Virus record (IMG/VR): IMGVR_UViG_3300020045_003677 | Location: 60,098-124,097 of that record | Length of the DNA: 64,000 nucleotides | Source of the DNA: a virus | Lineage: Duplodnaviria; Heunggongvirae; Uroviricota; Caudoviricetes | Reading direction: 5' to 3' (one strand) | Shown: piece after piece, positions 7,100 through 54,743 of the stretch | How the letters are laid out: every line of letters starts with the position of its first letter | Position numbering within the stretch: the stretch's first letter is position 1 | Program-made: the position numbers and the translations under genes | The notes under the pieces: model-generated | What the model saw: the letters and a program-made list of their open reading frames with translations, nothing else | Database searches by the model: none | What the model was told of the DNA's origin: nothing

Positions 7100-8140
7100 C
7101 TTGGAATCATTAGGATGGAGCTATTGTAGGGGTAGCTCCTCCTTACTTACCCGCTGGCGCGTCTTCGGACATTCGCCGGTGGGTTTAAGTTGATTATTCA
7201 CAATGCCAACATATAATAATCATGAAATGAGGCTTCTGCTATCATATAAAGATTATTGAGAGCTATGGATAGCCTAACACGCTGATCTACTCTCCAGAGT
7301 GCCCGGATACACAAATAAAACGTCGGGATAAATTTGCTACCGTTGAATATTAATAATGGTAGGACGGAGGTGGCGGAACCTCATCTTTACGGGCGTGAAC
7401 CGTGACAAACCTGTGGGGCTAGTGTGTGATATGTAGAGTGGCAAGCGACAGCTTCTCTATATACGAAACGGATCGTCGCTGATCCAGTATCACAACTTAG
7501 TGCAGACTTTAAAACCAGGTAGTCTAGGGTACATATTGAGAATATGTGCGGAGACTTTAAGAACCTTACAACCTCAACAACATCTGATAGTGTTGTAATA
7601 CAGTTCAATGCGGATCTATCGGACCGACATAACACTGCACGATGGGATACATTCAAGCTAACCAGACGCCGACTATGGCGTTCATGGCATGCACTAGTAT
7701 ACCCTGCGACGTAATCCTTATAATGTGCTCGTTGAACAGCACGGTATCGTATGGTCAAGCGATATGATAGGGTGAATTTATAACCATACAAACAAAAGCA
7801 ACACCTGGATGCTGGTAAATCAGGTAGGGACATGAACCGATGTCTCGAGTCTTCGACATTATTAAAAAGCTCAACTATCCCGAGTAAGCCAATGCTATGT
7901 CTAGATACGACAGATGCGGCCTCTACGCCGGAGAAATGAGAAAAGCCAACCACCAAGGAGAGCGGTATAGTGGAAACGAGACTGAGTGCCTATGCATATC
8001 ACCATCGTTTTCACTTCCGTTACTCGGTTCTCTTTTGACAGCTGGTTCATATATTAAGTCGTCTCACTATGATGATTTAGTAATATTGGACCAACCATAA
8101 TTATCAATTTCTAGTACCAAATCTTGTATTAATACTTAAA
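7100..8140. ncRNA. Candidate structured non-coding RNA region. About 1 kb, GC-rich and without an ORF.
   Basis: No credible ORF on the plus strand. A long hairpin at about 7149-7190 carries a UUCG tetraloop. Further hairpins include acgcc-gactat-ggcgt at about 7666. GC content is clearly higher than the flanking genes. Confidence 0.3.
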
Positions 8141-18129: not shown

Positions 18130-18620
18130 TGGCTAGATTCACATCTTCCCAGGAGATAATAGACTTCCATAGATGGTTGGAAACTGATGATGAGTTTGTC
18201 TTTCCTGTAGAAGGGGGTAAATCTATTGAGTTTAGACTCCGTAGTTATAGACCCAAGACTACTGATCAGAAGTTGACAGATAAGGAGTCTGTAAAGGCTA
18301 TACGGGATGCTGCTGGTATATCGGCTGAGCAGATGTTGAACATCGCTCAAAAGCATTACTCAGTAGATTCGTATGACCAAAGTAGTACTGGCCTAGGCGA
18401 CAGATGGCCTGAAAGGAACAATGATCATGGTAATTCTCCAAGTGAGATGAGCAATATGATTATTGAGATATTCAAGCTTATCGAAGAGCGTCGGAATCCT
18501 ACTGCAAAAGGGTATCGGACTACTCCGCAACAAGCTTCGCCTATAAAGGCTGGTGGCTTAGTTGTAGCAAGTATTGATCTTAGGTTGGGTACGCCCAATT
18601 TGGATATTAATGTTCGTTAA
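18129..18620 (+). CDS. Hypothetical protein.
   Basis: 163-aa ORF with ATGG start coupling. Confidence 0.55.
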   Translation: MARFTSSQEIIDFHRWLETDDEFVFPVEGGKSIEFRLRSYRPKTTDQKLTDKESVKAIRDAAGISAEQMLNIAQKHYSVDSYDQSSTGLGDRWPERNNDHGNSPSEMSNMIIEIFKLIEERRNPTAKGYRTTPQQASPIKAGGLVVASIDLRLGTPNLDINVR

Positions 18621-18628
18621 ATCGAACT

Positions 18629-18715
18629 GGAGATGTGGGTGAGTGGCTTAAACCACCGGTATGCTAAACCGGAGGCCCTTAACAGGGTCCGGGAGTTCGA
18701 ATCTCTCCGTCTCCG
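18629..18715 (+). tRNA. tRNA-Ser (anticodon GCU).
   Basis: Class II tRNA. Anticodon stem ccggt/accgg with loop auGCUaa, a long variable arm and T-loop ttcgaat. Confidence 0.85.
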
Positions 18716-18885
18716 CAATTAATGTTGAAAGACAGTGTGCTGCCTCAGTTAACAGGGCGTATAGCACCATTACTCAGAAGTAATACATTTAGTTTTATGA
18801 GAGTATTTAATCGGTACAGGAATTTGGAAGGGGTTGACCGCACTGTGCCTGAAAACACATGCACTGTCCAGTGATTCACTAAGGG

Positions 18886-19101
18886 ATGGGCCCCTCTTCC
18901 GTACCTAACAGTCTAACAATGAAGATGTCAGAATTAACACCAGAACAGATACAACACATTATTTCTCAATGTAGGTTAGTACCATGTACTGTAAATGAGG
19001 TAGCTAAGAGAACCTATTCAGGGTATACTCATGCTAATTTCATAAAAATATTTGAAGAACAATACAAAGATTTACCTTCTCCAATAAGGAGTGAGGAATA
19101 A
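18886..19101 (+). CDS. Hypothetical protein.
   Basis: 71-aa ORF. Confidence 0.45.
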   Translation: MGPSSVPNSLTMKMSELTPEQIQHIISQCRLVPCTVNEVAKRTYSGYTHANFIKIFEEQYKDLPSPIRSEE

Positions 19102-19104
19102 GAT

Positions 19105-19176
19105 GGAGCTTTCGTCTAGGGGTTAGGACACGGGCTTTTCATGCCTGGAACACGAGTTCGATTCTCGTAGGCTCTA
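19105..19176 (+). tRNA. tRNA-Glu (anticodon UUC).
   Basis: gtc-taggggttagga-cac D-arm and anticodon loop uuUUCau. Resembles bacterial tRNA-Glu. Confidence 0.85.
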
Positions 19177-19201
19177 CTAGTTAATTAACTTAAACATAAC
19201 A

Positions 19202-19792
19202 ATGGATGCGAAATTAATAAAAAACGATCAACTTAGTCTCTCATGCAAATTCTATAAAGAGACTATTCTTACATCTCCTACTGGTAAGACAATGACCAGT
19301 AAAGAGTTGGCTGCCATTACTGAGCTTGGGTTGGATACATCCACGATTGTGAGTACTGAGGTTAACCTTGCTACTATCAATATTGGATCCGGTCGTAGTA
19401 TGAAGGGCATGACTGAACAACAGGTACAGGCATTAATTAATGTCTTGAACTGCACTCATAAAAGCACTGATGTTAATTCGGCAGATGCTACTTTACTTAA
19501 AGGTAAGTACTGTGATTTTTCAACAACTCGTACTATTGTGAAGCCTATCAACATTACGTTTGATAATGGTGCTATTGCTGAGATAACTGCAGATATGATC
19601 GACTATAACAGTCGTGTAGCTGTTCTTGTCCCTGAAGAATACTTTGGTAATCAGTTTAGATTACGTAATGTGTACGGTTATAGTGTTAAGTTCTCATCGA
19701 GAGATACCATCATTGGTGTTGGATGTCATACATATAACTTTGCTGACCTGATTGTATTTTTACAAAAGATTCACGCACACTTATTATCGTAG
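19202..19792 (+). CDS. Hypothetical protein, paralogue of the downstream gene.
   Basis: 196-aa ORF that shares the ELG(L/F)DTST motif with 19794..20444. Confidence 0.55.
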   Translation: MDAKLIKNDQLSLSCKFYKETILTSPTGKTMTSKELAAITELGLDTSTIVSTEVNLATINIGSGRSMKGMTEQQVQALINVLNCTHKSTDVNSADATLLKGKYCDFSTTRTIVKPINITFDNGAIAEITADMIDYNSRVAVLVPEEYFGNQFRLRNVYGYSVKFSSRDTIIGVGCHTYNFADLIVFLQKIHAHLLS

Positions 19793-19793
19793 T

Positions 19794-20444
19794 ATGAGGA
19801 AAGTAAAATCATTTAATTGTGGCCCATTCAATATTGAGTGTGTTATACATGAGTTAACCAAGTGTACAAATCCAGACGGAGTAGTTGTGGACTTTGATCA
19901 GGTTAATAAAGCTAAAGAGCTAGGATTCGATACCAGTACGTTCAAGTTCGAACCGTCGTTTGAATACCATCTCACCTTTGGATACAGTTCAACTATTAGA
20001 TTTACTATTGATCAGATAATAGCTTTCAGAGATCTTATTGAGGGTATTATAGCTACCGGTACTGTGTCTTCCATTACCTATGAAGCTCTTAAACACTTAC
20101 CTAACATTAAGTTTGTACCGGTCATAAGATTGCTCCAAGACCTTGATGTTACCTTGCCTAATGGAGCCTCTATTACTGTAACTACTGGACTGGTTGGGGA
20201 ACCTTTCCTATCACTATTACCCGATGAGTACATTGTTAAGGAATATAAGGTGCTGAAGTTCTATAATGCAAAGTTTGCTGGTGACTCTACAGGGTTTACC
20301 GTAATGACTAGGTTTGGTGATACCTCAAAGCTCATTGACTTCTTTGACAGAATTATTACATATTACAAGGAGATGTTAACTTCTAAAGATAACGGTGGTC
20401 TAGGTATTGACGCCTTAGAAAGTGAGCCCACACAGACCCCGTAA
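19794..20444 (+). CDS. Hypothetical protein, paralogue of the upstream gene.
   Basis: ATG at 19794 lies immediately after the upstream stop. The track ORF is extended 5' in-frame. Confidence 0.55.
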   Translation: MRKVKSFNCGPFNIECVIHELTKCTNPDGVVVDFDQVNKAKELGFDTSTFKFEPSFEYHLTFGYSSTIRFTIDQIIAFRDLIEGIIATGTVSSITYEALKHLPNIKFVPVIRLLQDLDVTLPNGASITVTTGLVGEPFLSLLPDEYIVKEYKVLKFYNAKFAGDSTGFTVMTRFGDTSKLIDFFDRIITYYKEMLTSKDNGGLGIDALESEPTQTP

Positions 20445-20654
20445 GAAAGGGTGAAAACGAAACACTTAGAAAGACTGGAAAGCGAGTTGCCCCTTGAGAA
20501 CATCGGGTTTATGTTTGCACTGATGCCAAAACAGTATCCAGATTGATCAGTACTCACGCTAAACTATGTAAGCGGCATGGTGATTGGATCAGGCTTGGTC
20601 CGTTTATACGGCCTGGTATGTAGAGTATTCCGTGGCTGGTAAGTGTTTTTAAAT

Positions 20655-20736
20655 GGCCTCATGGCGGAATTGGTAGACGCGCTAGACTTAGGATCTGGTG
20701 TCGCGAGGCGTGAGAGTTCGAGTCTCTCTGAGGTCA
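20655..20736 (+). tRNA. tRNA-Leu (anticodon UAG).
   Basis: gcg-gaattggtaga-cgc D-arm, anticodon loop cuUAGga, a long variable arm and T-loop ttcgagt. Confidence 0.85.
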
Positions 20737-20820
20737 CGCTTGATTATTCTCAACGGCAGGGGTGCTGGTTGGGGGCGAGTGGATTAGGGTAACCTAGTTC
20801 ACTCTTTTTGTTTACTTAAA

Positions 20821-21159
20821 TTGATAGTTATGAAAGAATTATTTCATTCCTTGGTGTCCCTACTACAAACATTGATCTATGGATCTTTGTTTGGTTGCCT
20901 ACTAGTCATCATGTTCCTTCATGGAATGTATCGTGATCAGTATCCGGTGTATGACAACATTAAATGTATAGTAATTGATTCTGGAATGTACGCTAGTCGG
21001 TATGCTCCTAAGTCCTTCATTACTATCCGGATGGTAGATGATAGCACAAAAACAACTGTGCTTCATAGTGCCAATTATAGAGAATTTACTGATTTTAAGT
21101 ATAAAATTGGTGATACTCTACATTTCAAGTGGTTATTAAAAAGCAGATTTACTCATTAA
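20821..21159 (+). CDS. Membrane protein.
   Basis: 112-aa ORF with an N-terminal hydrophobic segment. Confidence 0.5.
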   Translation: MIVMKELFHSLVSLLQTLIYGSLFGCLLVIMFLHGMYRDQYPVYDNIKCIVIDSGMYASRYAPKSFITIRMVDDSTKTTVLHSANYREFTDFKYKIGDTLHFKWLLKSRFTH

Positions 21160-21169
21160 TAAATTAATC

Positions 21170-21526
21170 ATGAAAAACGACAAAGTATTGTTAAGTATTG
21201 TTCTTACTCAGTTTGCTGATGGTAAAGAAGACGTTGCAGTGGTAACACCTGAAGTTGTTGCAGCAGAAGGTACTCTTGCTCCAGAAACTGTAGCTGAAGA
21301 AGACAACGAGCCTATCAGATGTGCTATGGCTGTGACTGTTGATGGACCATCAAGTCTTATCCACCAGTCTTTGGTAAAAGCTTTCACTGAACACGATGAG
21401 CTTATGGGTATCTTCAGAAATGCAATTTCTGAGGTTATGATGGCCAAAATGTTTGGTGGTGGTCTTTCGGATCTTATCGATGCACTTGGTGGCAAAGAAG
21501 AGTCTACCGAAAAAACTGAGGAGTAA
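21170..21526 (+). CDS. Acidic hypothetical protein.
   Basis: 118-aa ORF rich in Glu/Asp. Confidence 0.5.
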   Translation: MKNDKVLLSIVLTQFADGKEDVAVVTPEVVAAEGTLAPETVAEEDNEPIRCAMAVTVDGPSSLIHQSLVKAFTEHDELMGIFRNAISEVMMAKMFGGGLSDLIDALGGKEESTEKTEE

Positions 21527-21535
21527 TATTCTCAT

Positions 21536-21610
21536 GGACCTGTAGCCAAGTTGGTAACGGCACCAGACTCATAATCTGGAGATGCGCGAGTTCGAAGCTC
21601 GCTGGGTCCA
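21536..21610 (+). tRNA. tRNA-Met (anticodon CAU).
   Basis: Canonical cloverleaf. Anticodon stem ccaga/tctgg with loop cuCAUaa and T-loop ttcgaag. Confidence 0.85.
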
Positions 21611-21629
21611 CTAATTTAATTACACTAAT

Positions 21630-21866
21630 ATGCCACTAACAATTCCAGGAAAGTGCTCCTCTTGTAAGCACAAACGAACAGTTCCGGGAGATGCACATAT
21701 TAGATGTGCTAATCCAGACCCTGACATGACGGGATACCCTCATGGTATAAGACAAGGATGGTTCTACTATCCAGTACTATTTGATCCAGTATGGATGACT
21801 AAAGAGTGTAACAACTATGAATGTAAAGACGAAACTCTCAAAACTAATGAGAAAGACCCCGGATAA
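21630..21866 (+). CDS. Small Cys-rich protein.
   Basis: 78-aa ORF with CSSC...C...C cysteine clusters. Confidence 0.45.
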   Translation: MPLTIPGKCSSCKHKRTVPGDAHIRCANPDPDMTGYPHGIRQGWFYYPVLFDPVWMTKECNNYECKDETLKTNEKDPG

Positions 21867-21961
21867 TAATAAATACTGCCCTGTGCTTGCTTTTGGGTAT
21901 GGTAACGGAAGCTTTCTTATAATGATTCCGTGGTTCAGTATTCAATTTAATCGAATTAAAA

Positions 21962-22207
21962 ATGAAAAACGGTGATAAAGTACATTATGTACCCTTTGAT
22001 GGGTGCACTAACGAAGAATGCCGAAATGGGATGATCAAACGTACCTTTACTGGTATGGATGACTATTACTATGTCGCGTATGGATGCCAAGACCCTGCAG
22101 ATATCAACAAACATAAAGGTGAGTTAACCCTCATCAGTAAGTTGAAAGAAAATTGGGTTGAACAGAACTTTCCTGAAGATACCACTGAAGAGGAGGAAGA
22201 ATGGTAA
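21962..22207 (+). CDS. Hypothetical protein.
   Basis: 81-aa ORF. Confidence 0.45.
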   Translation: MKNGDKVHYVPFDGCTNEECRNGMIKRTFTGMDDYYYVAYGCQDPADINKHKGELTLISKLKENWVEQNFPEDTTEEEEEW

Positions 22208-22473
22208 GCAAGTTCGAACAATACAAAGCTGCAATGTTACAATATTGTAGTACTGATGCCCTAGAGCTATTTGAAAAGTTCTTGAAGAAGGAGAAGGTGT
22301 TCGAGAATTTCGAAGCTAATCTAAATCTTCGCGAGAACATGATTATACAAGGCCCACATCTACTTACTGCTAATGCGTTTGTGTGGATGAGTACACCTGA
22401 GAAGTTCGATTTCTGGTGGGGTATTGATGAACGATGGGTAAATTATCTATTGAAACATGGGCCAAAAGCATAA
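22201..22473 (+). CDS. Hypothetical protein.
   Basis: 90-aa ORF. Confidence 0.45.
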   Translation: MVSKFEQYKAAMLQYCSTDALELFEKFLKKEKVFENFEANLNLRENMIIQGPHLLTANAFVWMSTPEKFDFWWGIDERWVNYLLKHGPKA

Positions 22474-22738
22474 AGAAATCGAAGTAAGTGGTACTCAAAG
22501 AGTACGCGTGACCGTCGATCCATTGATTGTGATGGAGAAAGAATATGATAGATCGGTTCCTCGACATACTTTTCTAAAGGAAATAGATGGAAAGTTCTAC
22601 ATACTATGTGATGATCAGCTCGACGATGACATCTCTGATAGCGAGATTAGTAAAGAAGAGTTTGATTATCTTACCAGTCTAAAATTTGCTATTAGAGCAT
22701 TATTAACATTTAGGGTATGGTCTACAAAGGGCAAATAA
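22457..22738 (+). CDS. Hypothetical protein.
   Basis: 93-aa ORF. Confidence 0.45.
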   Translation: MGQKHKEIEVSGTQRVRVTVDPLIVMEKEYDRSVPRHTFLKEIDGKFYILCDDQLDDDISDSEISKEEFDYLTSLKFAIRALLTFRVWSTKGK

Positions 22739-23130
22739 CTCAGCTCGAACCAAACGAGATATTCGTATTTGGTAGTAACACTCAAGGTCGCCATGGTAAA
22801 GGTGCAGCATTAATTGCTAGACAGAAGTTTGGTGCTATCTATGGTCAAGCACGAGGTCGTCAAGGCCAGTGTTATGCTATAGTAACCAAGGATCTTACTA
22901 AGGACTATAATTCGCCCTCAGTCAGTATTGAGTGTATTAAACAGGAGATAAGAGACCTGTATGGCTATGCTCGATTATATCCAGAGTTAAAGTTCTATGT
23001 AGCATACTCGGGTACCGGCACCAATCTAAACAACTATTCAAATCCATTGATGGCAACTATGTTTCGTCAGAGACCCATTCCAGAGAATATTGTGTTTGAA
23101 GAGTCATTCGACAGATTAGTAAACTTTTAA
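22717..23130 (+). CDS. Conserved Rossmann-like domain protein. Possibly a SLOG/DprA-like nucleotide-binding fold.
   Basis: The motif FVFGSNTQGRHGKGAA...GA..G...GQCYAIVTK is a Gly-rich Rossmann-type signature recurrent in phage proteins. Family assignment is tentative. Confidence 0.4.
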   Translation: MVYKGQITQLEPNEIFVFGSNTQGRHGKGAALIARQKFGAIYGQARGRQGQCYAIVTKDLTKDYNSPSVSIECIKQEIRDLYGYARLYPELKFYVAYSGTGTNLNNYSNPLMATMFRQRPIPENIVFEESFDRLVNF

Positions 23131-23271
23131 CATTTTGATACTATATCATGAGAAAAGTAATCTTTTTGCTATTATGCTTGGTGTTAGCCAGTTGTGCAAC
23201 ACCTAAGAAGTTTGGGTACCCAAAGGGAACTCAGATGAATACTGATTGGAGAATTCGTAAACTATAATTAA

Positions 23272-23559
23272 ATGAAACTGAAAGCTATAACTGGAATAAT
23301 AGTATTGTTCCTACTGATACTAACCGGGTATTTGTTATTGAATGAGATGTTTAGTCTAAGTAAGGCTAATGAGATCAATCGACAGAAGACGCTACAACGA
23401 GAGATGTTCAAATTGGGCGCCTCTATGTACAGGTCTCAAGTGATCAATACATATGGTGATTCTATCATATTTCCCATTGACTCACTGTTCATACGCGAAG
23501 TGTTCGATTATAACGATACTCTTGGTCATGAAATTGAGGGTGTAGCCTTCGAAAATTAA
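23272..23559 (+). CDS. Membrane-anchored hypothetical protein.
   Basis: 95-aa ORF with an N-terminal transmembrane segment. Confidence 0.45.
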   Translation: MKLKAITGIIVLFLLILTGYLLLNEMFSLSKANEINRQKTLQREMFKLGASMYRSQVINTYGDSIIFPIDSLFIREVFDYNDTLGHEIEGVAFEN

Positions 23560-23566
23560 CAAGGAT

Positions 23567-23640
<74 letters not shown>

Positions 23641-23655
23641 CTAATAACTTGTACC

Positions 23656-23814
23656 ATGTATACAGAACAAGAAATGCTTGAGTTTGCTGTATGGTGTGGA
23701 ACCAACTTTGTATCATACCATTCGAAGCGTGATGGTGAGAGAATATGGTTTGACCCAGAAAAGGTTGTGTACCAAACAACAAAGCAGTTATTAAAAATTT
23801 GGAGTAATAAATAA
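23656..23814 (+). CDS. Small hypothetical protein.
   Basis: 52-codon ATG ORF below the track cutoff, between tRNA-Arg and the next gene. Confidence 0.3.
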   Translation: MYTEQEMLEFAVWCGTNFVSYHSKRDGERIWFDPEKVVYQTTKQLLKIWSNK

Positions 23815-23831
23815 TTTAACGTAAAAATCAC

Positions 23832-24629
23832 ATGAGCTTAAAATTGAATGTGTTATTGGCGATAACTGACGCACTACGCGTGAAGTTTAAAAATATGGTA
23901 GCCGACCATACGAAGTTTTATCAGAAAGCCCAAGGAGCATTCCTGGGTACAAAAGCAACATATGTCAACCGCGAAGGTTGTTTAGATGATCCAAGCAAGC
24001 GTAAGTTTGTGAAAGTTATCACAACTGTTGACGAAAAGATTGCGTATTTTATCAAAGAGTCGAAAGAGTTTGTTGATGCTCTTATGTCACAAGAGAAAAC
24101 CAATGCATCCGGTATTGCAACTGCAGAACTTGTTGTGAATGGAGAATCTTGGGGTGTATTTACATCATTGGAACTGCTTCGTTTGAAGTCTTTGATCGAA
24201 TCTGCAGAGTTTGGTAGCCTTGAGCAGATGATTGCTGGAATCCCGGTAAGATCAGATGCTGAGATATGGGCCCCAACAACCAAGGAAGAATATGCCGATA
24301 GAGCAATCTATGAAGCTCCTCTTGCCTCTGGTGAATCGCGTACATCTTCTAAAGAGGAGTACATTCTCGAAGATCCGAACCTTTCTAAGCTTACATCTGG
24401 TAGTTATCAGCCTAAGCTTGCTACGCGCACAACTGTATTCACCATTGGTGACTATACTACCCAGGATTTCTCTGGTGAGTGGTCTCAACGTGAGCGTGCC
24501 GGAGCATTGAAAAGGAGAAGTGATCTTCTTATTGCCGTTACAAAAGCCCTTAAAGAATCTAATGACTGTACTGTTATCAACTCTGAGTTGACAGCGGATA
24601 GAATCTTTGGATTTATCTTCAAAGGGTAA
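23832..24629 (+). CDS. Hypothetical protein.
   Basis: 265-aa ORF. Confidence 0.6.
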   Translation: MSLKLNVLLAITDALRVKFKNMVADHTKFYQKAQGAFLGTKATYVNREGCLDDPSKRKFVKVITTVDEKIAYFIKESKEFVDALMSQEKTNASGIATAELVVNGESWGVFTSLELLRLKSLIESAEFGSLEQMIAGIPVRSDAEIWAPTTKEEYADRAIYEAPLASGESRTSSKEEYILEDPNLSKLTSGSYQPKLATRTTVFTIGDYTTQDFSGEWSQRERAGALKRRSDLLIAVTKALKESNDCTVINSELTADRIFGFIFKG

Positions 24630-24792
24630 CACAAAATATTGGTTCAAGCTTTAATCTTAACTTTAACTTTAATCCAGCCCATAGCGCGTTTTAGATTTTT
24701 AGTTGTACCAAAAGATTTAGCTTGAACTTTATTGGTAGGAGTAGTCAGGTGGAAAACAAACGAAAAATTACAGAGAATGTAACTTTTTTGAA

Positions 24793-24830
24793 GTTGTCGG
24801 TCGCGGGTTTGAGTCCCGTCACGGCCTCCA
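24793..24830 (+). tRNA. 3' half of a split, permuted tRNA, predicted Gln-UUG-like. It has an anticodon 3' strand, variable loop, T-arm, acceptor 3' strand and an encoded CCA.
   Basis: gttgt-cggtc-gcggg-tttgagt-cccgt-cacggcc-t-cca. Its acceptor and anticodon strands are exact complements of the 5' half at 25030..25059. Confidence 0.45.
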
Positions 24831-25029
24831 TTATTATCACGTTTGAGGTTTACATAGACATTTCTCCATACTAGGGCAGTTGTGCTTGCTAATAGGTGGT
24901 TAAGACATAGCTCTGCCTATAGTAAAGTACATCACAGTCTTACTTGAAAGAAAGTATAAAGGAAGGTATCCGAGCAAAGAGGGTTTGACTTGGCCCCACC
25001 AAACGTAATATTAGTACAATGCAATAACT

Positions 25030-25059
25030 GGCCGTGTAGCTTAGTGATAGAGCAACAAC
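25030..25059 (+). tRNA. 5' half of the same split, permuted tRNA. It has an acceptor 5' strand, D-arm and anticodon 5' strand.
   Basis: ggccgtg-ta-gctt-agtgata-gagc-a-acaac. It lies 199 nt downstream of its 3' half. D-loop A19 covaries with U56 in the tttgagt T-loop. Confidence 0.45.
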
Positions 25060-25150
25060 CCAAAGAAAATAGCTTTAGCATAAGTACACTTGAATATGAA
25101 ACTACACAGAGACCCCGTCCTAAGAAGGATACTGATCGGATGGGGTACAT

Positions 25151-25222
25151 GGGGAGGTGGTGCAGTGGTAGACACGCACAGCTATGGTGTGAATTGCGTC
25201 GGTTCGAATCCGACCCTCCACA
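25151..25222 (+). tRNA. tRNA-like gene with a non-canonical anticodon arm (possible UAU with C33) and an acceptor mismatch. May be a pseudogene or decoy.
   Basis: The T-arm gtcgg-ttcgaat-ccgac and D-loop cagtggtaga are canonical. Acceptor ggggagg/cctccac has a G-A mismatch at 2-71. Best anticodon stem is 4 bp (caca/tgtg) with loop gcUAUgg. Confidence 0.4.
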
Positions 25223-25419
25223 CAAAAATTGAGCCATGAAAAGAGAAAAGAAAGTAAATGTTAATGATGATGAGCGCTGGCCTGCTTACAATGAACTTAA
25301 GTCTAAGGGTGATACTATAAAAGCTAACAAGCTTAAAGAAGAGATCCTAGATTCATATAAATGGAAGAAGCCATGTCATCATGTGGCAGAGAGGTAATCA
25401 ATAACTTAAATTTATAACA

Positions 25420-25788
25420 ATGAAATTAACATTTAAACATAGGCCTGGGTATCTTTTCTCTCTAAGAGTATTAGATACTAATGGAGATGAGGTAGTTATG
25501 TCTTATTCTGTAGACGATATACTGAAAAGTATACTGGTATCTAAGCAGCAAGAGTCTGGTATTATTACTTACAGCACATTCAAATCAAGTAAACCTTGTA
25601 TTGGTGTTTGTAATGTCAATTGCGGTGATTGGAAAGTTGTTTATTCAAACATTGAAGGTGTTGAAGTAAATGATCCTCTACGTATCTGTATGACCGGGTT
25701 TAAGAAGCATGTTGGTGCACTAAGATCTAAATTATTTAAGACACATTATTTTATCATTGAAACAGATGAATCTACAACTGTTGATTAG
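25420..25788 (+). CDS. Hypothetical protein.
   Basis: 122-aa ORF with an A-rich start context. Confidence 0.55.
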   Translation: MKLTFKHRPGYLFSLRVLDTNGDEVVMSYSVDDILKSILVSKQQESGIITYSTFKSSKPCIGVCNVNCGDWKVVYSNIEGVEVNDPLRICMTGFKKHVGALRSKLFKTHYFIIETDESTTVD

Positions 25789-25789
25789 G

Positions 25790-25951
25790 ATGTTTGTATG
25801 GTTTCCATTGTTGAAACGATACAAAATGATATTTCCTTATAAGGAGCCATATCTATATGCAGGGCTAAATCCTAAATGGAAGAACCCTGATGGGTCACAA
25901 ATGACCATAAAAGAACGTAAATTGCTATACAAAAACTGGATAACAGCATGA
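25790..25951 (+). CDS. Small hypothetical protein.
   Basis: ATG at 25790 right after the upstream stop. The track ORF begins at TTG 25757. Confidence 0.35.
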   Translation: MFVWFPLLKRYKMIFPYKEPYLYAGLNPKWKNPDGSQMTIKERKLLYKNWITA

Positions 25952-26292
25952 CAGAACAAGAAATTAAAGATGGGTCTATCCTGATTGCTAAGTTCTTAGG
26001 ATGGAAACAAGGGTTTCTCTTTGAATGGACTTGCCCTTTTGAACCTTCTAAAAACGGCTTTAGGAATATCTATGCACCTAATGGTAATGGTATGAAATTT
26101 CATACTGACTGGAACTGGTTAATAGCTGGTGCCAAGAAGTTTGATGGTATTCATGACCAGATCGCTGAAGAACATATAGCTGATTATGTGTGTATGTGCG
26201 ATGAACAGGATGATTCTGTTACATGCTATGATATAATGAACGCTTTCGAAGTGTTGGTGAATAACGTTAAATGGTATAATTCGATAGTATGA
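25948..26292 (+). CDS. Hypothetical protein.
   Basis: 114-aa ORF. Confidence 0.5.
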   Translation: MTEQEIKDGSILIAKFLGWKQGFLFEWTCPFEPSKNGFRNIYAPNGNGMKFHTDWNWLIAGAKKFDGIHDQIAEEHIADYVCMCDEQDDSVTCYDIMNAFEVLVNNVKWYNSIV

Positions 26293-26486
26293 TACCAGGA
26301 GATAAGATTCACTATGTTGCCCCTCATGAAGGAGCAGTACCACAGAACGGTATGTTCAAGTCTTTGAATGAGTTCGATAAAACACATATCTTTGTAGTGT
26401 TTAACTGTGGAGAAGACTGGGAACGGTACAAGGACTATACAGGACAAAATACGCCCATATCCCGGGTCTTTCCGGGTTGGGTATAA
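26289..26486 (+). CDS. Hypothetical protein.
   Basis: 65-aa ORF overlapping the upstream stop. Confidence 0.4.
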   Translation: MIPGDKIHYVAPHEGAVPQNGMFKSLNEFDKTHIFVVFNCGEDWERYKDYTGQNTPISRVFPGWV

Positions 26487-26719
26487 CTTATTACCTACTG
26501 AGGCAGAATTAGTGAAATAGGCGAGTTAACGCTCATACGGCGCCTAAGAAGGACGCACCACTAAGTCATTCTAAGATGACCATTCTGATAAAGGCATGGC
26601 GGCTGCAGATGGCAGTGTCAATATTTGCGTGCTCCACTACTTAGAAGTGGATAGGTAACAACATTTGCATCGTAAGGTGTAAGTAGTATGCGTAATAGTG
26701 TACATAAAAGCGTATGCTT

Positions 26720-26794
26720 TGCGAGGTGGCGCAGATTGATTAGCGCACTCCCGACGAAAGGGAGAGGTCGTAGGTTTGAATCCTGCCCTCGCTA
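26720..26794 (+). tRNA. tRNA-like gene with a non-canonical anticodon loop. Anticodon CGA with A33, a short variable arm, a U56 T-loop and a 1-72 mismatch.
   Basis: gcgc-agattgatta-gcgc D-arm, anticodon stem ctccc/gggag with loop gaCGAaa, and T-arm gtagg-tttgaat-cctgc. D-loop A19 covaries with U56. Confidence 0.5.
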
Positions 26795-26801
26795 CAAAAT
26801 T

Positions 26802-26875
26802 CATGAGATAGCTCAGCCCGGTAGAGCAGCGGACCCATATTCCGCGTGTCGGTGGTTCAAATCCATCTCTCGTGA
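26802..26875 (+). tRNA. tRNA with anticodon CAU (Met or Ile2-like). Its anticodon loop is unusual, with C33.
   Basis: Acceptor catgaga/tctcgtg, D-arm gctc-agcccggtaga-gagc, anticodon stem gcgga/tccgc with loop ccCAUau, and T-loop ttcaaat. Confidence 0.7.
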
Positions 26876-26895
26876 CTAATTTTAAATTAATAACA

Positions 26896-36993: not shown

Positions 36994-38421
36994 ATGTTTC
37001 AACCAAATTTTTGTACAGCGACTGACTTCTATAAGTTTGGTCACTGGTGTCAATACCCTAAGGGTATGGATAGTATCAACTCATACTGTGAGGCCCGTGA
37101 AGGTGCCCTATTTCATGATATTGTGTGGAATGGTATTCTACCAATACTAAAGGACTTCTTTGAAGGTGACGTGATTACACGTGATAACATTGAAGAGGCC
37201 AATGAAATCGTAACCGGTATGGGTGGTCATCCAGCATATTTTAACCGGGCCATGTGGGAAGAGATTCTCACTAAACACAATGGTAGATTACCGTTGTCTA
37301 TTAAGGCATTGCCCGAAGGTACTGTGGTACCGCCATCAACTCCACTATTCTGTATTACCAACACAGGTGGAGCTATTACACAACCACTTGTAAATCACAG
37401 CGAAACTCTATTAATGCATGTCTGGAGCTCAACTACGGTCGCGAGTGTATCTCGCTATATCAAGAAGAACATTCTGGATAAGTGGGCTAAGTTAACCGGA
37501 ACACCCGAACTAACCATATGGCAGTTGCATGACTTCGGATTCCGAGGTGTAAGTAGCTGGCAGACTGCAGTATACTCTGGTATGGGTCACTTGATCACAT
37601 GTCGTGGTACTGACACGTCTGATGCTGTTCGCGGTATTCGTCATTATTATGGTACAAAAGAGATCTTTGGAAACTCTGTATGGGCTACTGAACATTCTGT
37701 CGCAACTTCTTATGGTCCAGGTCGTGGTGAAGTAGACTATGTTCTTGCTCAGCTTAATGCAGCTCCAGATGATGCAATTGTATCTATGGTTATGGATAGC
37801 TATGACACGTTCAACTTTGCGCAGAATGTTGTTGGTCATCCAGAAGTACTAGCTAAAATCAAAGCACGTTCTGGTCGCACAGTATTCCGTCCTGATAGTG
37901 GTGATCCGGTAGCCGTTAATCTGAGAGTATTGGATATTCTTGGTAACGTATTGGGATTCACTGTCAATGGACTGGGTTACAAAGTATTGAACCATAATGT
38001 AGGAGTGTTACAGGGAGATGGTATGGATTACCAAACCATTGATACCCTGTTTGAAGCCATTATAACAATTGGTCACTGGTCATCTGACAACTTAGTTGTT
38101 GGTTCGGGTGGTGGGTTGTTGCAGAAATGGAATCGTGACACACTGAGATTTGCTATCAAGGCATCTCATGGTTCAATCAATGGTGTTGGGTTTGATATCT
38201 TCAAAGACCCAGCAACAGCAAATGTTGGTAATGAAACAAAAGCATCGAAACGTGGACTGTTAAAGGTTGCGCAGATCGGTAACACATTCACTACTATCAG
38301 TTCCACTACTTGTGCTCCTAACATGTTTAATCAATATGTTGATGCCATGGAACCTATTTTCCTCAATGGGGATATTATGGGTACACATGATTTCAATCTG
38401 ATCAAAAAGAGAGCAATCTAA
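36994..38421 (+). CDS. nadV: Nicotinamide phosphoribosyltransferase (NAMPT, NadV-like).
   Basis: N-terminus ATDFYKFGHWCQYP matches the TDSYK motif. LHDFGFRGVSS, RGTDT, FRPDSGDP, LQGDGMD and GSGGGLLQK are colinear with NAMPT signature blocks. Confidence 0.85.
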   Translation: MFQPNFCTATDFYKFGHWCQYPKGMDSINSYCEAREGALFHDIVWNGILPILKDFFEGDVITRDNIEEANEIVTGMGGHPAYFNRAMWEEILTKHNGRLPLSIKALPEGTVVPPSTPLFCITNTGGAITQPLVNHSETLLMHVWSSTTVASVSRYIKKNILDKWAKLTGTPELTIWQLHDFGFRGVSSWQTAVYSGMGHLITCRGTDTSDAVRGIRHYYGTKEIFGNSVWATEHSVATSYGPGRGEVDYVLAQLNAAPDDAIVSMVMDSYDTFNFAQNVVGHPEVLAKIKARSGRTVFRPDSGDPVAVNLRVLDILGNVLGFTVNGLGYKVLNHNVGVLQGDGMDYQTIDTLFEAIITIGHWSSDNLVVGSGGGLLQKWNRDTLRFAIKASHGSINGVGFDIFKDPATANVGNETKASKRGLLKVAQIGNTFTTISSTTCAPNMFNQYVDAMEPIFLNGDIMGTHDFNLIKKRAI

Positions 38422-39446
38422 TGAGAGAACTATTGGAATTACTTACCGCAGCTGGGAAAACGTTTTGTATAACGGAACTTGGCTGCGGTATGCCGATAGC
38501 TCATGGATTCATGGGACTATCTGGGTCCAGTAAGGTACTTAAGTATGCTAACTGCCCCTATAGCAAAGAAGTTCAGGAGATCATGATACCTAACATCTTA
38601 CATAGATCCGTTAGTGTTGAACGAGTTGGGTTTCTTTTAAAAGCTTTGGAGAATTACGATGCAGACTTTGATATTGTGTATTCTTTACAAGCTGGTGAGG
38701 ATAAAGAATGTCATGGGTTCATCGCCATTAACTCCGAGGGTATGGTGGAAGGTGCTGTTGCATATCATTTTACCTTTGGTTACAATATTAGTAAAGTTGA
38801 AGCCGGTGCTAGAATGATTGGGTTGTTTATTGCTATTGTCAAGAGACATGTACTCAAGATAAACTTCAACATGGGTCAGATCGACGGCGCCTTCATACAA
38901 CATGGTAGGGATTGGGACTTTTATCCTGAACTATTACCACTTAACCACAGATCATTTGTAATCACCAATGGTGGAGAGTGGATGCGTACTACAGTATTCT
39001 TGAGAGATCTAGGTCATCTTGGAATTATCAAAGGAAGCTTTAATCCATATCATGAAGGTCATGAACAATTGGTGGAGGAAGCTTTCCGTCAGCAATATGT
39101 TCCAGTATTATCGCTTACAGGAGAAACTGTTGAAGGAAAGAAAGCCAGTGCTACCGAGCTTGTTGGAAGAGCTAAAACAACTCAGCGTAACTGCATCATA
39201 GATTCGGACAACACAAAGTTTATGGATCTTATTATGGTTCTACGCAATATCTATCGGTTTGAGGGTCAGATTGGTATCTTTGCAGGTATCGATGTGTATC
39301 ATAGGATGGAAGAAGCTTTGTTCGAATTACCCCATGTTCAGTTCTATGTCTATCACAGAGAAATGAATGTGGATAATGTGTTATTTCTGTCATCAAAGTT
39401 TCCTACAACATCATCTACTAAAATCAGAGAACATGCACTCGATTAA
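38421..39446 (+). CDS. Two-domain protein. The C-terminal half is a nicotinamide/nicotinate mononucleotide adenylyltransferase-like domain. The N-terminal half is unassigned, possibly CinA-C/PncC-like.
   Basis: GSFNPYHEGH is the (H/T)xGH nucleotidyltransferase motif, with a downstream SxT-region. N-terminal ITELGCGMPIA weakly resembles the CinA C-domain AESCTGG motif. Confidence 0.65.
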   Translation: MRELLELLTAAGKTFCITELGCGMPIAHGFMGLSGSSKVLKYANCPYSKEVQEIMIPNILHRSVSVERVGFLLKALENYDADFDIVYSLQAGEDKECHGFIAINSEGMVEGAVAYHFTFGYNISKVEAGARMIGLFIAIVKRHVLKINFNMGQIDGAFIQHGRDWDFYPELLPLNHRSFVITNGGEWMRTTVFLRDLGHLGIIKGSFNPYHEGHEQLVEEAFRQQYVPVLSLTGETVEGKKASATELVGRAKTTQRNCIIDSDNTKFMDLIMVLRNIYRFEGQIGIFAGIDVYHRMEEALFELPHVQFYVYHREMNVDNVLFLSSKFPTTSSTKIREHALD

Positions 39447-54299: not shown

Positions 54300-54743
54300 A
54301 TGAATAAAGAATTCACACAACTGAATGGTAAATACAACGATGATACTTATCCTACGTTCCCATTCGTTTCGAAAAATAAAATAACCCTTCTTAAATCTGG
54401 GCTGTACAAAAAACACAAAGCTAACTTCAGAGGCATCACAGCTACCTTTAACAAGGACTCTGGTGAGTATGAATTTCCATTGTATGGAATGTACCTCGTG
54501 AAAGAGGATATGGTTATTGTTCCGGATGAACTAGAGTTAAACGAGAGTAAACAAGCATTTCTTAATGCAGCGATTACTGCCGGTTATATTCAATCCAGCA
54601 AGCCACCTAAATTTGAAACTGTTAAATTTCCCGCTGATTCACCGGAAGCTAAATTGGCTTTATCAAATAAGGTAGACTTTCAATTTAGTCAGGTAATAGA
54701 CGGGTCTCAAGAAGACGAAGTCTATGATCCATCTCGTAACTAG
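54300..54743 (+). CDS. Hypothetical protein.
   Basis: 147-aa ORF. Confidence 0.55.
   Translation: MNKEFTQLNGKYNDDTYPTFPFVSKNKITLLKSGLYKKHKANFRGITATFNKDSGEYEFPLYGMYLVKEDMVIVPDELELNESKQAFLNAAITAGYIQSSKPPKFETVKFPADSPEAKLALSNKVDFQFSQVIDGSQEDEVYDPSRN

What the first reader, a model, noticed from the sequence alone, without database searches (positions are those of the whole stretch)
24793..25059. Two tRNA halves in permuted order that would reconstitute a canonical tRNA-Gln(UUG).
A 3' tRNA half lies at 24793-24830. It carries an anticodon 3' strand gttgt, variable loop, T-arm gcggg-tttgagt-cccgt, acceptor 3' strand cacggcc, discriminator t and an encoded CCA. It sits 199 nt UPSTREAM of a 5' half at 25030-25059, which carries acceptor ggccgtg, u8, D-arm gctt-agtgata-gagc and anticodon 5' strand acaac. 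The acceptor strands (7/7) and anticodon strands (5/5) are perfect Watson-Crick complements. Joining the nucleotides that flank the two stems (5' half ...acaac|c, 3' half ttt gaa|gttgt) gives a textbook 7-nt loop cUUUGaa, with U33, anticodon UUG and A37. The unusual U56 in the T-loop of the 3' half is matched by A at the position-19 slot of the D-loop in the 5' half. This A19:U56 covariation replaces the universal G19:C56 pair and argues that the halves evolved as one molecule. Permuted tRNA genes are known from the red alga Cyanidioschyzon and a few archaea, where they are processed through a circular intermediate. I am not aware of one in a bacteriophage or its bacterial host lineage.
Basis: partly seen in the sequence, partly recalled or inferred. 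Interest (0 to 1): 0.9.

Follow-up and report, generated by a model that had tools for sequence, protein, structure and literature searches.

The report
Phage RNA with permuted tRNA-like domain
The two "tRNA halves" are real and co-evolve, but they form a tRNA-shaped module inside a larger conserved phage noncoding RNA of about 400-590 nt, which carries a second tRNA-like arm paired to it through a loop-loop contact; they do not make a gene for a working glutamine tRNA.

Summary
The 3' half lies at 24793-24827 and the 5' half at 25030-25059, with perfect acceptor and anticodon-stem complementarity.

I found the same permuted arrangement in all 22 other loci with enough sequence, always just downstream of a DUF7873 gene. 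These are Bacteroidota phages, prophages and MAG contigs. Covariation is very strong: 96.5% of cells pair and 19 of 21 pairs show compensatory changes.

The tRNA-Gln reading fails:
- The cUUUGaa loop and the CCA occur only in the window.
- No break point gives U33 plus R37 in more than 10 of 21 relatives.
- The T-run is one strand of a small local hairpin.

The flanks base-pair with each other through two covarying helices. The "anticodon" loop of the odd tRNA just downstream (25151-25223) is complementary to the apical loop of a long upstream hairpin (24679-85), and this pairing covaries through about ten sequence variants.

So 24639-25223 is one ornate RNA with two tRNA-like domains. Its closest topological analogues are YrlA Y RNAs and two-piece tmRNA. 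It fails the membership tests for both, and no Rfam family matches it. Its function is unknown. I infer a tRNA mimic matured by RNase P and CCA addition.

The parts
23832..24629 (+). DUF7873 protein gene. It lies immediately upstream of the RNA in every locus examined. It is a syntenic neighbour and a possible partner; its function is unknown.
   Evidence: Pfam PF25283, E 1.5e-34. 401 homologues. Adjacent to the RNA in all loci. AF2 model pLDDT 83.6 with no informative fold or sequence match.
24639..24792 (+). Domain A, the 5' domain of the RNA.
   Evidence: Conserved and covarying in relatives. The minimum-energy fold reproduces the hairpins and H1/H2.
24679..24685 (+). K: apical-loop sequence CCATAGC, complementary to the loop of the downstream tRNA-like domain F.
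   Evidence: Perfect 6-8 nt complement in the same two places in 21 of 22 loci examined, through about 10 different sequence variants; the remaining locus, L141, has 5 nt.
24793..24828 (+). B: 3' half of the permuted tRNA-like module T1. It comprises the anticodon-like stem 3' strand, a 5-nt variable loop, the T arm with a U56-type loop, the acceptor 3' strand, U73 and C74.
   Evidence: U73-C74 is invariant in all 23 loci and matches the N73-C ending of all 13 phage tRNA genes in the window.
24829..25029 (+). C: variable linker closing the acceptor stem. Counting from C74 it is 202 nt here and 16-82 nt in most relatives. It is not conserved and probably dispensable or excised.
   Evidence: Lengths. 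The long inserts in the window, L133 and L129 are unrelated to each other and not repeated in the window. No Rfam hit.
25030..25059 (+). D: 5' half of T1. It comprises the acceptor 5' strand, U8 A9, the D arm (A19-type loop) and the anticodon-like stem 5' strand.
25060..25150 (+). Domain E. It holds a conserved segment ATAGCTTTAGCATAAGTA (25069-86), the H2 3' strand CACTTGA (25087-93), the H1 3' strand CTAC (25102-05), ACAGAGA (25106-12), and a hairpin (25112-25146) with the conserved loop AAGGATACTGA (25125-35).
   Evidence: Covarying stacks found in an all-against-all column screen, by RNAalifold and by RNAduplex in each locus.
25151..25223 (+). F: second tRNA-like domain in normal order. 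ARAGORN calls it tRNA-Pyl(cta), which is a false suppressor call. Its 7-nt loop GCTATGG (25181-87) is K', the partner of K. It has no U33.
   Evidence: Rfam tRNA 34.3 bits. ARAGORN's anticodon calls differ between homologues: cta, tgt, atg, acc. The acceptor stem covaries. The loop varies in size and sequence and tracks K. In L140, L143 and L146, K' sits in a long variable arm.

Best explanation
Window 24639-25223 (+) encodes one large structured noncoding RNA. It is about 400 nt without the linker insert and 585 nt here. It belongs to a family conserved in phages and prophages of Bacteroidota and always lies just after a DUF7873 gene.

Architecture (shown):
- A long 5' hairpin.
- Two long-range helices, H1 and H2, that join the upstream flank (A) to the downstream flank (E).
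- At the end of that rod, a complete tRNA-shaped module, T1. Its strand order is permuted (T arm, acceptor stem closed by a variable loop, D arm), and its anticodon stem continues into the rod instead of ending in an anticodon loop.
- A 3' hairpin with an invariant loop.
- A second tRNA-like domain, F, whose anticodon-arm or variable-arm loop base-pairs with the apical loop of the 5' hairpin.

Mechanism (inferred, not shown): T1 and F are recognised by the host tRNA maturation machinery. RNase P cuts 5' of 25030 and 5' of 25151. The linker is trimmed back to U73-C74, and CCA is completed as for the phage's own tRNA genes. This would leave a two- or three-piece RNA held together by the acceptor stem, the anticodon-like stem, H1, H2 and the kissing helix. 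That RNA would act as a tRNA mimic or scaffold that engages tRNA-binding factors during infection, possibly together with DUF7873. It is not a decoding tRNA.
For: - The permuted cloverleaf is conserved with compensatory changes in 19 of 21 pairs. It is found by a covariance model in loci not used to build the model.
- H1, H2 and the E hairpin are among the top covarying stacks in an unbiased column-pair screen, alongside the tRNA helices. RNAalifold, RNAduplex and the window's own minimum-energy fold recover them.
- K and K' are complementary over 6-8 nt in 21 of 22 loci examined, with about 10 variants: CCATAGC/GCTATGG, CCACAGC/GCTGTGG, CCACAAGC/GCTTGTGG, TTCTCGGT/ACCGAGAA, CCTCGA/TCGAGG, CCTTAAC/GTTAAGG, TCCATACA/TGTATGGA, ATCTCGAT/ATCGAGAT, CCTCTATC/GATAGAGG, CCCAGTC/GACTGGG, TCCTATC/GATAGGA.
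- There is no conserved anticodon loop.
- The linker varies from 16 to 202 nt and is unrelated between loci, while U73-C74 is invariant and identical to the 3' signature of all 13 phage tRNA genes in the window.
- The YrlA covariance model, which has the same T/acceptor-loop/D order, hits the module in relatives at E down to 6e-7 but below its threshold.
- Mycobacterium smegmatis YrlA, which has a 7-bp acceptor stem, is cut by RNase P and receives CCA (PMC4201824).
- Hosts are Bacteroidota.
Against: - There are no expression data. The ends of the RNA, the processing steps and the biological role are all inferred.
- Covariation cannot tell whether K-K' forms within one molecule or between molecules.
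- One covarying pairing (TTGGT 24639-43 with ACCAA 24707-11) is sterically implausible in cis and remains unexplained.
- DUF7873 gave no functional clue, and its adjacency may be mere synteny.
- The alignments of the A and E flanks were built by MAFFT and by eye from 12-22 sequences. No R-scape-type significance test was run on them.
Confidence: 0.65

Rival explanations
1. One reading: a circularly permuted tRNA gene. Its transcript is cut at both flanks, ligated into a circle and then opened by RNase P and 3' processing, giving a functional tRNA-Gln(UUG), or tRNAs with other anticodons in other phages.
For: The permuted halves covary as a cloverleaf, with tRNA-type D/T-loop tertiary covariation and a tRNA-type U73-C74 end. 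In the window the joined loop would be a textbook c/UUUUGAA. The flanks pair with each other, as leader and trailer do in split and permuted archaeal and algal tRNAs.
Against: No break point gives U33 plus R37 in more than 10 of 21 loci, and there would be at least 15 different anticodons. The distance between the stem and the flank helices is variable and long, 12-45 nt on one side and 22-30 nt on the other. In L147 and L148 the stem is 6-8 bp with almost no variable loop. The flanks carry a conserved hairpin that kisses domain F, so they look functional rather than discarded. No splicing endonuclease, RtcB or RNA ligase domain was found among the 30 window ORFs scanned. Neither flank gives a ribozyme or intron hit.
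Confidence: 0.04
2. A divergent YrlA-type Y RNA. The tRNA-like module tethers an effector, and the stem formed by the flanks binds a Ro60 (Rsr) protein of the host or phage.
For: It has the same permuted order of T arm, acceptor stem-loop and D arm. Rfam RF02553 hits exactly this module in L130 (38.2 bits), L126 (35), L129 (31.8), L123 (29.2) and L135 (26.5). YrlA RNAs are known in 22 phages (PMC4201824).
Against: All hits fall far below the gathering score of 69. In the alignment only the tRNA-like part matches; the Ro-binding stem and the GNCGAAN0-1G motif do not. No TROVE domain appears in any called gene within about 3 kb in 10 relatives or in 30 window ORFs, whereas YrlA lies within 4 kb of Ro60. 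YrlA has no second tRNA domain or kissing hairpin.
Confidence: 0.08
3. A homo-oligomeric 'ornate' phage RNA in the manner of ROOL and GOLLD. The K-K' helix, the TTGGT/ACCAA pairing, or both, would be bridges between copies, assembling a multimer. This can coexist with the best explanation.
For: ROOL and GOLLD are large phage and prophage RNAs near tRNA islands. tRNAs sometimes sit in the GOLLD linker, and kissing loops first seen by covariation proved to be intermolecular (PMC12286853). The TTGGT/ACCAA pairing covaries (TTGAC/GTCAA in L134 and L135) but is sterically implausible in cis (and my reading of it).
Against: No Rfam ROOL or GOLLD match. F is tethered so that a cis kissing contact along the roughly 35-bp hairpin seems geometrically possible. 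The TTGGT covariation rests on one lineage and can alternatively extend the hairpin base.
Confidence: 0.15
4. A permuted two-piece tmRNA-like ribosome-rescue RNA. T1 would be the tRNA-like domain and domain E would carry a short tag frame (window: GCU UUA GCA UAA = Ala-Leu-Ala-stop).
For: The gene topology matches two-piece tmRNA. The permuted tmRNA models give weak hits on the T-arm/acceptor/loop/acceptor stretch at 16-19 bits. The window, L133, L130 and L001 show an 'I-A-L-x-stop' frame reminiscent of tmRNA tag ends.
Against: There is no G3:U70; position 3:70 is C:G, A:U or G:C. The discriminator is U, not A. The frame is not conserved in L123, L125, L129, L134, L135 or the second set of loci. 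There is no room for PK1 plus a tag ORF. ARAGORN, which finds permuted tmRNAs, makes no call. Relatives carry a separate bona fide tmRNA gene (L130 84.7 bits, L125 70.3 bits).
Confidence: 0.02
5. A permuted intron-exon arrangement. The flanks would be the two parts of a self-splicing group I intron, or a pair of self-cleaving ribozymes, that circularise the exon halves.
For: The flanks are structured and together span about 240 nt, the size of a small group I intron. The same window holds a Hatchet ribozyme (7383-7520), and a relative holds a group I intron.
Against: Neither flank hits a group I, Hatchet, twister, hammerhead, pistol or HDV-like model at E up to 10 or in 10 relatives at E up to 1, although the same scan finds the true intron in L132. 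The window has no U at the would-be 5' splice site (acaac|ccaaag). The flank helices enclose the tRNA module as a simple rod, without a P3-P7 type pseudoknot core.
Confidence: 0.02
6. Decayed remnants of a tandem tRNA duplication, or a chance juxtaposition at a junction between adjacent tRNA genes.
For: Junctions between adjacent tRNA genes do mimic the T-x-D order. The model R1 scores such junctions at 20-30 bits, for example window 26764-26830.
Against: In those junctions the acceptor strands are not complementary. Here pairing is 100% over 7 pairs with compensatory change at every pair, and the anticodon stem covaries at all 5 pairs. The arrangement is conserved across DUF7873 identities from 41% to 75%.
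Confidence: 0.01

Closest known systems
YrlA (Y RNA-like A) RNAs of bacteria and mycobacteriophages (Rfam RF02553; Chen et al. 2014, PMC4201824)
   Same: A tRNA-like module sits inside a larger ncRNA with the same permuted strand order: T arm, acceptor stem closed by a loop, D arm. The 'anticodon' stem runs into a rod formed by the two flanks. D/T-loop tertiary pairs are preserved. [quoted passage not shown] The RF02553 model gives sub-threshold hits on the module.
   Different: Scores reach at most 38 bits against a threshold of 69. There is no Ro60-binding motif and no Ro60 gene nearby. The RNA is three to five times larger, with a long 5' hairpin, a conserved 3' hairpin and a second full tRNA-like domain attached by a covarying loop-loop helix. 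It lies in Bacteroidota phages next to DUF7873.
Two-piece tmRNA from circularly permuted ssrA genes (alpha- and beta-proteobacteria, cyanobacteria; Rfam RF01849-51, RF04321; background from my own knowledge of Keiler, Shapiro and Williams 2000)
   Same: The gene order is 3' tRNA-like part (T arm, acceptor 3' strand), then an excised linker, then the acceptor 5' strand followed by further structured RNA. The pieces are expected to stay together by base pairing. The permuted tmRNA models give weak hits at the junction.
   Different: There is no G3:U70. The discriminator is U73. The D arm is a true D arm, and there is no conserved tag reading frame or pseudoknot series. The same phage lineage carries standard tmRNA genes as well.
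Circularly permuted tRNA genes of Cyanidioschyzon merolae and some archaea
   Same: The 3' half is encoded upstream of the 5' half, the acceptor ends are joined by a short linker, and the flanks pair with each other.
   Different: Those genes recreate a canonical loop at a bulge-helix-bulge junction cut by the splicing endonuclease, and each has a fixed anticodon. Here no loop can be recreated consistently. The flanks are long, conserved and tied into further structure, and the host domain lacks that splicing pathway.
ROOL and GOLLD large ornate RNAs of phages and prophages (PMC12286853)
   Same: These are large, heavily structured RNAs encoded near tRNA islands of phages, with kissing-loop interactions detected by covariation and no known function. 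GOLLD sometimes contains a tRNA in its linker.
   Different: No sequence or structure match to either Rfam model. The RNA is smaller, it is built around two tRNA-like domains, and its oligomeric state is unknown.
T-box Stem I bound to tRNA (my own knowledge of Zhang and Ferre-D'Amare 2013 and Grigg and Ke 2013)
   Same: A long hairpin presents a loop that base-pairs with the anticodon-arm loop of a tRNA-shaped partner lying alongside it.
   Different: The partner is covalently part of the same transcript. The pairing is 6-8 nt, not a codon. In some members the partner loop is in the variable arm. No T-box sequence or terminator/antiterminator is present. This is a resemblance only and was not tested.

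Membership tests
Canonical decoding tRNA | Four cloverleaf helices maintained by compensatory change | tested here: met
   96.5% of cells paired, and 19 of 21 pairs have changes on both sides. 244 of 248 cells are canonical in 12 loci.
Canonical decoding tRNA | D-loop/T-loop tertiary pair 19:56 | tested here: met
   U56 goes with a GA D-loop (9 loci) and C56 with GG (the remaining loci).
Canonical decoding tRNA | 7-nt anticodon loop with U33 and a purine at 37, and an anticodon conserved among orthologues | tested here: not met
   The best split point gives U33 plus R37 in 10 of 21 loci, and there are at least 15 different triplets.
Canonical decoding tRNA | Contiguous 5'-to-3' gene recognised by tRNA finders | tested here: not met
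   ARAGORN and Rfam RF00005 do not call it. The order is 3' half, then linker, then 5' half.
Permuted tRNA gene (C. merolae / archaeal type) | 3' half upstream of 5' half, with acceptor ends joined by a linker | tested here: met
   The linker is 16-202 nt.
Permuted tRNA gene (C. merolae / archaeal type) | Flanks form a bulge-helix-bulge at a junction that recreates a canonical tRNA loop | tested here: not met
   The junction is variable in length and sequence. The first conserved flank helix (H2) lies 12-45 and 22-30 nt from the stem.
Permuted tRNA gene (C. merolae / archaeal type) | Splicing endonuclease and ligase available; circular intermediate | not testable with these tools
   No such domains in the 30 window ORFs scanned. 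The rest of the 175-kb genome and the host were not examined, and there are no RNA data.
YrlA Y RNA (RF02553) | tRNA-like domain in the order T arm, acceptor stem-loop, D arm | tested here: met
YrlA Y RNA (RF02553) | Score at or above the Rfam gathering threshold (69 bits) | tested here: not met
   The best hit is 38.2 bits (L130). The window gives no hit.
YrlA Y RNA (RF02553) | Ro60-binding stem with the GNCGAAN0-1G motif | tested here: not met
   The alignment matches only the tRNA-like core. The outer stem aligns to A/U runs.
YrlA Y RNA (RF02553) | Encoded within about 4 kb of a Ro60/TROVE gene on the same strand | tested here: not met
   No TROVE domain in the gene tables of 10 relatives or in the window ORFs.
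Two-piece (permuted) tmRNA | G3:U70 alanine identity pair and A73 | tested here: not met
   Position 3:70 is C:G, A:U or G:C, and the discriminator is U in all 23 loci.
Two-piece (permuted) tmRNA | Conserved tag reading frame ending in a stop codon | tested here: not met
   The GCU UUA GCA UAA-like frame appears in only about 5 close relatives and is absent in the others.
Two-piece (permuted) tmRNA | Match to the Rfam permuted tmRNA models, or an ARAGORN call | tested here: not met
   Scores of 16-19 bits against thresholds of 47-84. ARAGORN makes no call.
Group I intron (permuted intron-exon) | Catalytic core detectable (RF00028), with U at the 5' splice site | tested here: not met
   No hit in either flank, while the same scan finds the L132 intron at 69 bits. 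No U follows acaac in the window. Caveat: the permuted order could not be undone for the scan.
ROOL / GOLLD | Match to RF03087 / RF01998 | tested here: not met
   No hits. Only the genomic context (a phage tRNA island) is shared.

The most novel reading that the evidence does not exclude
The element is the founding example of an undescribed class of phage RNA. It would be a multi-piece, RNase P-matured assembly that displays two CCA-ended tRNA-like arms on a rigid scaffold. One arm is permuted and anticodon-less; the other is clamped by a T-box-like loop-loop helix. The arms may be aminoacylated, and the RNA may oligomerise through the sterically 'impossible' TTGGT/ACCAA pairing. It would act on the ribosome or on another tRNA-dependent enzyme, possibly as an RNP with DUF7873.
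Probability: 0.12. Interest if true: 0.9.

Novelty: new variant of a known kind. Interest (0 to 1): 0.65.

Why it matters
- It adds a new, widespread family to the short list of large structured phage RNAs. There are hundreds of DUF7873-linked loci, in soil, freshwater, marine and gut metagenomes and in one cultured Cytophagales genome.
- It is a second, independent case after YrlA and two-piece tmRNA in which evolution permuted a tRNA and fused it to another RNA. That suggests tRNA arrays in phages are a source of new RNA architecture.
- It has a practical side. Its second domain is called a suppressor tRNA (cta) by ARAGORN, which could lead to false inference of stop-codon recoding. Split or permuted tRNA searches would report the first domain as a tRNA gene.
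- The rich covariation and the isolate host (Xanthocytophaga flavus NT2B1) make structure and function directly testable.

Tried and rejected
- Exact-pattern scans of IMG/VR with the 3' half, the 5' half, the domain E motif and the domain F motif found only L001, and later L129.
- The single metagenome scan, with the T-arm 20-mer, was swamped by ordinary Bacteroidota tRNA-Gly genes. It was wasted for finding relatives, but it showed that the U56/A19 form and the variable-loop plus T-arm are tRNA-Gly-like.
- The search for related loci with the single DUF7873 protein found nothing in IMG/VR. The route that worked was search for homologous proteins, then look-up of encoding contigs, plus the alignment-based genome scan.
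- BLAST of the region against GenBank phages gave no match.
- Rfam scans at permissive E-values gave no family.
- The promoter and terminator scan was at chance level.
- The 202-nt linker is not a repeat or a ribozyme and is not shared with other long linkers.
- The covariance model R1 cannot span the window's 202-nt linker, so it scores only the 3' half there (24.8 bits).
- I looked for a partner of the conserved AAGGATACTGA loop and of the domain E 5' segment and found none.
- Literature searches for a prior description found none.
Full report
**Observation.** At 24793-24827 lies gttgt-cggtc-gcggg-tttgagt-cccgt-cacggcc-t, followed by cca. At 25030-25059 lies ggccgtg-ta-gctt-agtgata-gagc-a-acaac. 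The acceptor strands pair 7/7 and the anticodon-stem strands 5/5. Neither ARAGORN nor Rfam calls a tRNA there. They-14 other tRNAs, a Hatchet ribozyme at 7383-7520, and an odd low-scoring 'tRNA' directly downstream at 25151-25223. The region 24630-25235 is intergenic, between a 265-aa DUF7873 gene and small ORFs.

**Relatives.**
- Pattern scans of IMG/VR found one relative, L001, and later a second, L129.
- The metagenome scan with the T-arm was swamped by ordinary Bacteroidota tRNA-Gly genes. That showed two things. The U56 T-loop with an A19-type D-loop is a normal feature of that lineage. The window's D arm and variable-loop plus T-arm are almost identical to tRNA-Gly, with the same U73.
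- The productive route was the neighbouring protein. It has 401 homologues. Their contigs and an alignment-based scan of GTDB genomes gave 21 further distinct loci.
- All loci with taxonomic labels are Bacteroidota (Cytophagales, Chitinophagaceae, Sphingobacteriales, Saprospiraceae, Spirosomataceae). One is the isolate Xanthocytophaga flavus NT2B1.
- Every locus with enough downstream sequence (22 of 22 besides the window) has the same permuted arrangement right after the DUF7873 gene. None has a contiguous tRNA there.

**The permuted cloverleaf is real.**
- In 12 hand-parsed loci, 244 of 248 cells are canonical pairs, and 17 of 21 pairs show compensatory double changes.
- A covariance model built from these finds six loci not used to build it at 46-57 bits, E 1e-12 to 1e-15.
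- On the model-fitted alignment of 15 loci, 96.5% of cells pair against 63% for shuffles. 19 of 21 pairs change on both sides. The covariation score is 0.90 against 0.22 for shuffles and at most 0.17 for slid controls. The acceptor stem is 100% paired, with compensatory change at all seven pairs.
- The tertiary 19:56 pair covaries: U56 with GA and C56 with GG.
Artefact, duplication remnant and chance are excluded.

**It is not a tRNA-Gln gene.**
- The features that made the loop look textbook do not survive comparison. Relatives have CTA, CAA or CTG where the window has CCA. Only U73-C74 is invariant, and that is the ending of all 13 ordinary tRNA genes of this phage.
- The sequences next to the stem differ in every lineage. 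For any choice of break point, at most 10 of 21 loci would have U33 and a purine at 37, and the 'anticodon' would take at least 15 values.
- The closest relatives would give UUU (L001) or UUG followed by U37/C38 (L122).
- The T-run is the 3' strand of a small hairpin, an A-run pairing with a T-run, whose stem covaries and which is absent in several relatives.
- In the Saprospiraceae-associated loci the stem is 6-8 bp with almost no variable loop.

**What surrounds it.**
- An unbiased screen of all column pairs of the 12-sequence alignment returned the tRNA helices, a hairpin in the downstream flank E, the acceptor stem of the downstream tRNA-like domain F, and two helices joining the upstream flank A to E. 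These two are H2 (window TCAGGTG 24745-51 with CACTTGA 25087-93; CAAATG/CATTTG in L135; CGAGTA/TACTCG in L123) and H1 (GTAG 24735-38 with CTAC 25102-05; GTGA/TCAC; GTAA/TTAC).
- RNAalifold, RNAduplex on each of 22 loci, and the window's own minimum-energy fold recover them. The anticodon-like stem therefore continues, through a variable junction, into a rod made of both flanks.
- The loop of F (window GCTATGG, 25181-87) is the exact complement of the apical loop of the long hairpin in A (CCATAGC, 24679-85).
- This complementarity of 6-8 nt recurs in the same two places in 21 of 22 loci examined (5 nt in L141), with about ten different sequences. In three loci the partner loop sits in a long variable arm of F rather than its anticodon arm.
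- F therefore has no stable anticodon: ARAGORN calls cta, tgt, atg or acc in different homologues. It has no U33 and is part of the same structure.
- The E hairpin loop GAAGGAYAYTGA and the ACAGAGA before it are conserved in sequence, with no partner found.

**Best explanation.** 24639-25223 is one large structured RNA with two tRNA-like domains, one permuted and anticodon-less, conserved in Bacteroidota phages.
- Shown: the architecture, the covariation, the synteny and the taxonomic range.
- Inferred: processing and function.
- The linker that closes the acceptor stem is free to vary from 16 to 202 nt and is unrelated between loci. U73-C74 is invariant and matches the phage tRNA 3' signature. 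The acceptor plus T-arm stack is a full 12 bp.
- I therefore propose that RNase P and the 3'-end/CCA machinery mature both domains. This would leave a two- or three-piece RNA held together by base pairing, which acts as a tRNA mimic or scaffold.
- The precedent is M. smegmatis YrlA, whose 7-bp acceptor stem-loop is cut by RNase P and receives CCA in vivo (PMC4201824).

**Comparison with known families.**
- YrlA has the same permuted order. Its Rfam model hits the module in five relatives at 26-38 bits, below the 69-bit threshold. In the one alignment inspected (L130), only the tRNA-like core matches. The Ro60-binding motif and a nearby TROVE gene are absent.
- Two-piece tmRNA shares the gene topology and gives weak model hits. 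However, G3:U70, A73, the pseudoknots and a conserved tag frame are all missing. A GCU-UUA-GCA-UAA frame in the window and a few close relatives is not conserved. The lineage also carries ordinary tmRNA genes.
- Group I intron and self-cleaving ribozyme models do not hit the flanks.
- ROOL and GOLLD share only the context (phage tRNA islands) and the lesson that covarying kissing loops may be intermolecular (PMC12286853).
- No literature description was found.

**Unresolved points.**
- A covarying pairing between the 5' TTGGT (24639-43) and ACCAA in the hairpin's internal loop (24707-11) becomes TTGAC/GTCAA in L134 and L135. It cannot form in cis together with the hairpin. It may be an alternative state, an extension of the hairpin base, or an intermolecular bridge.
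- DUF7873 gave a confident model (pLDDT 83.6) but no informative match.
- There are no expression data.

**Verdict.** The object is more interesting as a new tRNA-derived structured RNA family than as a permuted tRNA gene. I score interest at 0.65 and novelty as a new variant of a known kind (tRNA-like modules embedded in larger RNAs).

Noticed in passing
window 7383-7520 (+): A Hatchet self-cleaving ribozyme, 71.7 bits against a threshold of 51 (E 9.5e-13). It lies in an intergenic stretch after the ORF ending at 7098. What lies 5' of its cleavage site was not analysed.
   Followed up: partly
window 28245-28319, 28736-28811, 32449-32530 (+): Three tRNA-like genes score 41-56 bits to Rfam tRNA, but ARAGORN cannot assign an anticodon to them. 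Their loops are read as 4-nt 'gaag' and 'taaa' and 2-nt 'aa'. They could be frameshift-suppressor-like or intron-containing tRNAs, or further non-decoding tRNA-like domains.
   Followed up: no
window 25151-25223 (+): ARAGORN labels this domain tRNA-Pyl(cta), which looks like an amber suppressor. Homologues are labelled Thr(tgt), His(atg) and Gly(acc). The call is an artefact of a non-anticodon loop and could mislead recoding analyses.
   Followed up: yes
window, all 13 ARAGORN tRNA genes (13119-32530): Every tRNA gene ends N73-C and then diverges. C74 is encoded but CA is not. The Bacteroidota tRNA-Gly genes in L002-L121 show the same pattern.
   Followed up: partly
L130 1955-2299; L125 235-642: Related phages encode bona fide tmRNA genes (84.7 and 70.3 bits). 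ARAGORN reads the L125 tag as GKVRTLSFTEDKVFGRVAA*. The window itself has none within its 64 kb.
   Followed up: no
L132 1432-1728 (ORF 1721-2197): A group I intron (69.1 bits) with a LAGLIDADG homing-endonuclease ORF lies about 1 kb upstream of the DUF7873 gene in one relative. Its host gene was not identified.
   Followed up: no
window 36994-39446, 45023-45886, 54724-56898: The phage encodes NAMPT plus a cytidylyltransferase-like (NMNAT-type) protein, its own sigma-70-like factor and a family A DNA polymerase. Its contig is 175 kb, so this is a large virulent-type Bacteroidota phage with NAD salvage genes.
   Followed up: no
window 24985-25012 (+), inside the 202-nt linker: A sigma-70-like match (TTGACT-16-AATATT) lies just upstream of the 5' half. 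It is at chance level in the scan and of the wrong promoter type for Bacteroidota. If it were active, the two halves would be transcribed separately.
   Followed up: no
L143 (NZ_JASJOR010000003.1, 142466-146245 of a 485-kb contig): The DUF7873 gene plus RNA module sits in a large contig of a cultured isolate, Xanthocytophaga flavus NT2B1. That suggests an integrated or co-assembled phage and offers an experimental system.
   Followed up: partly
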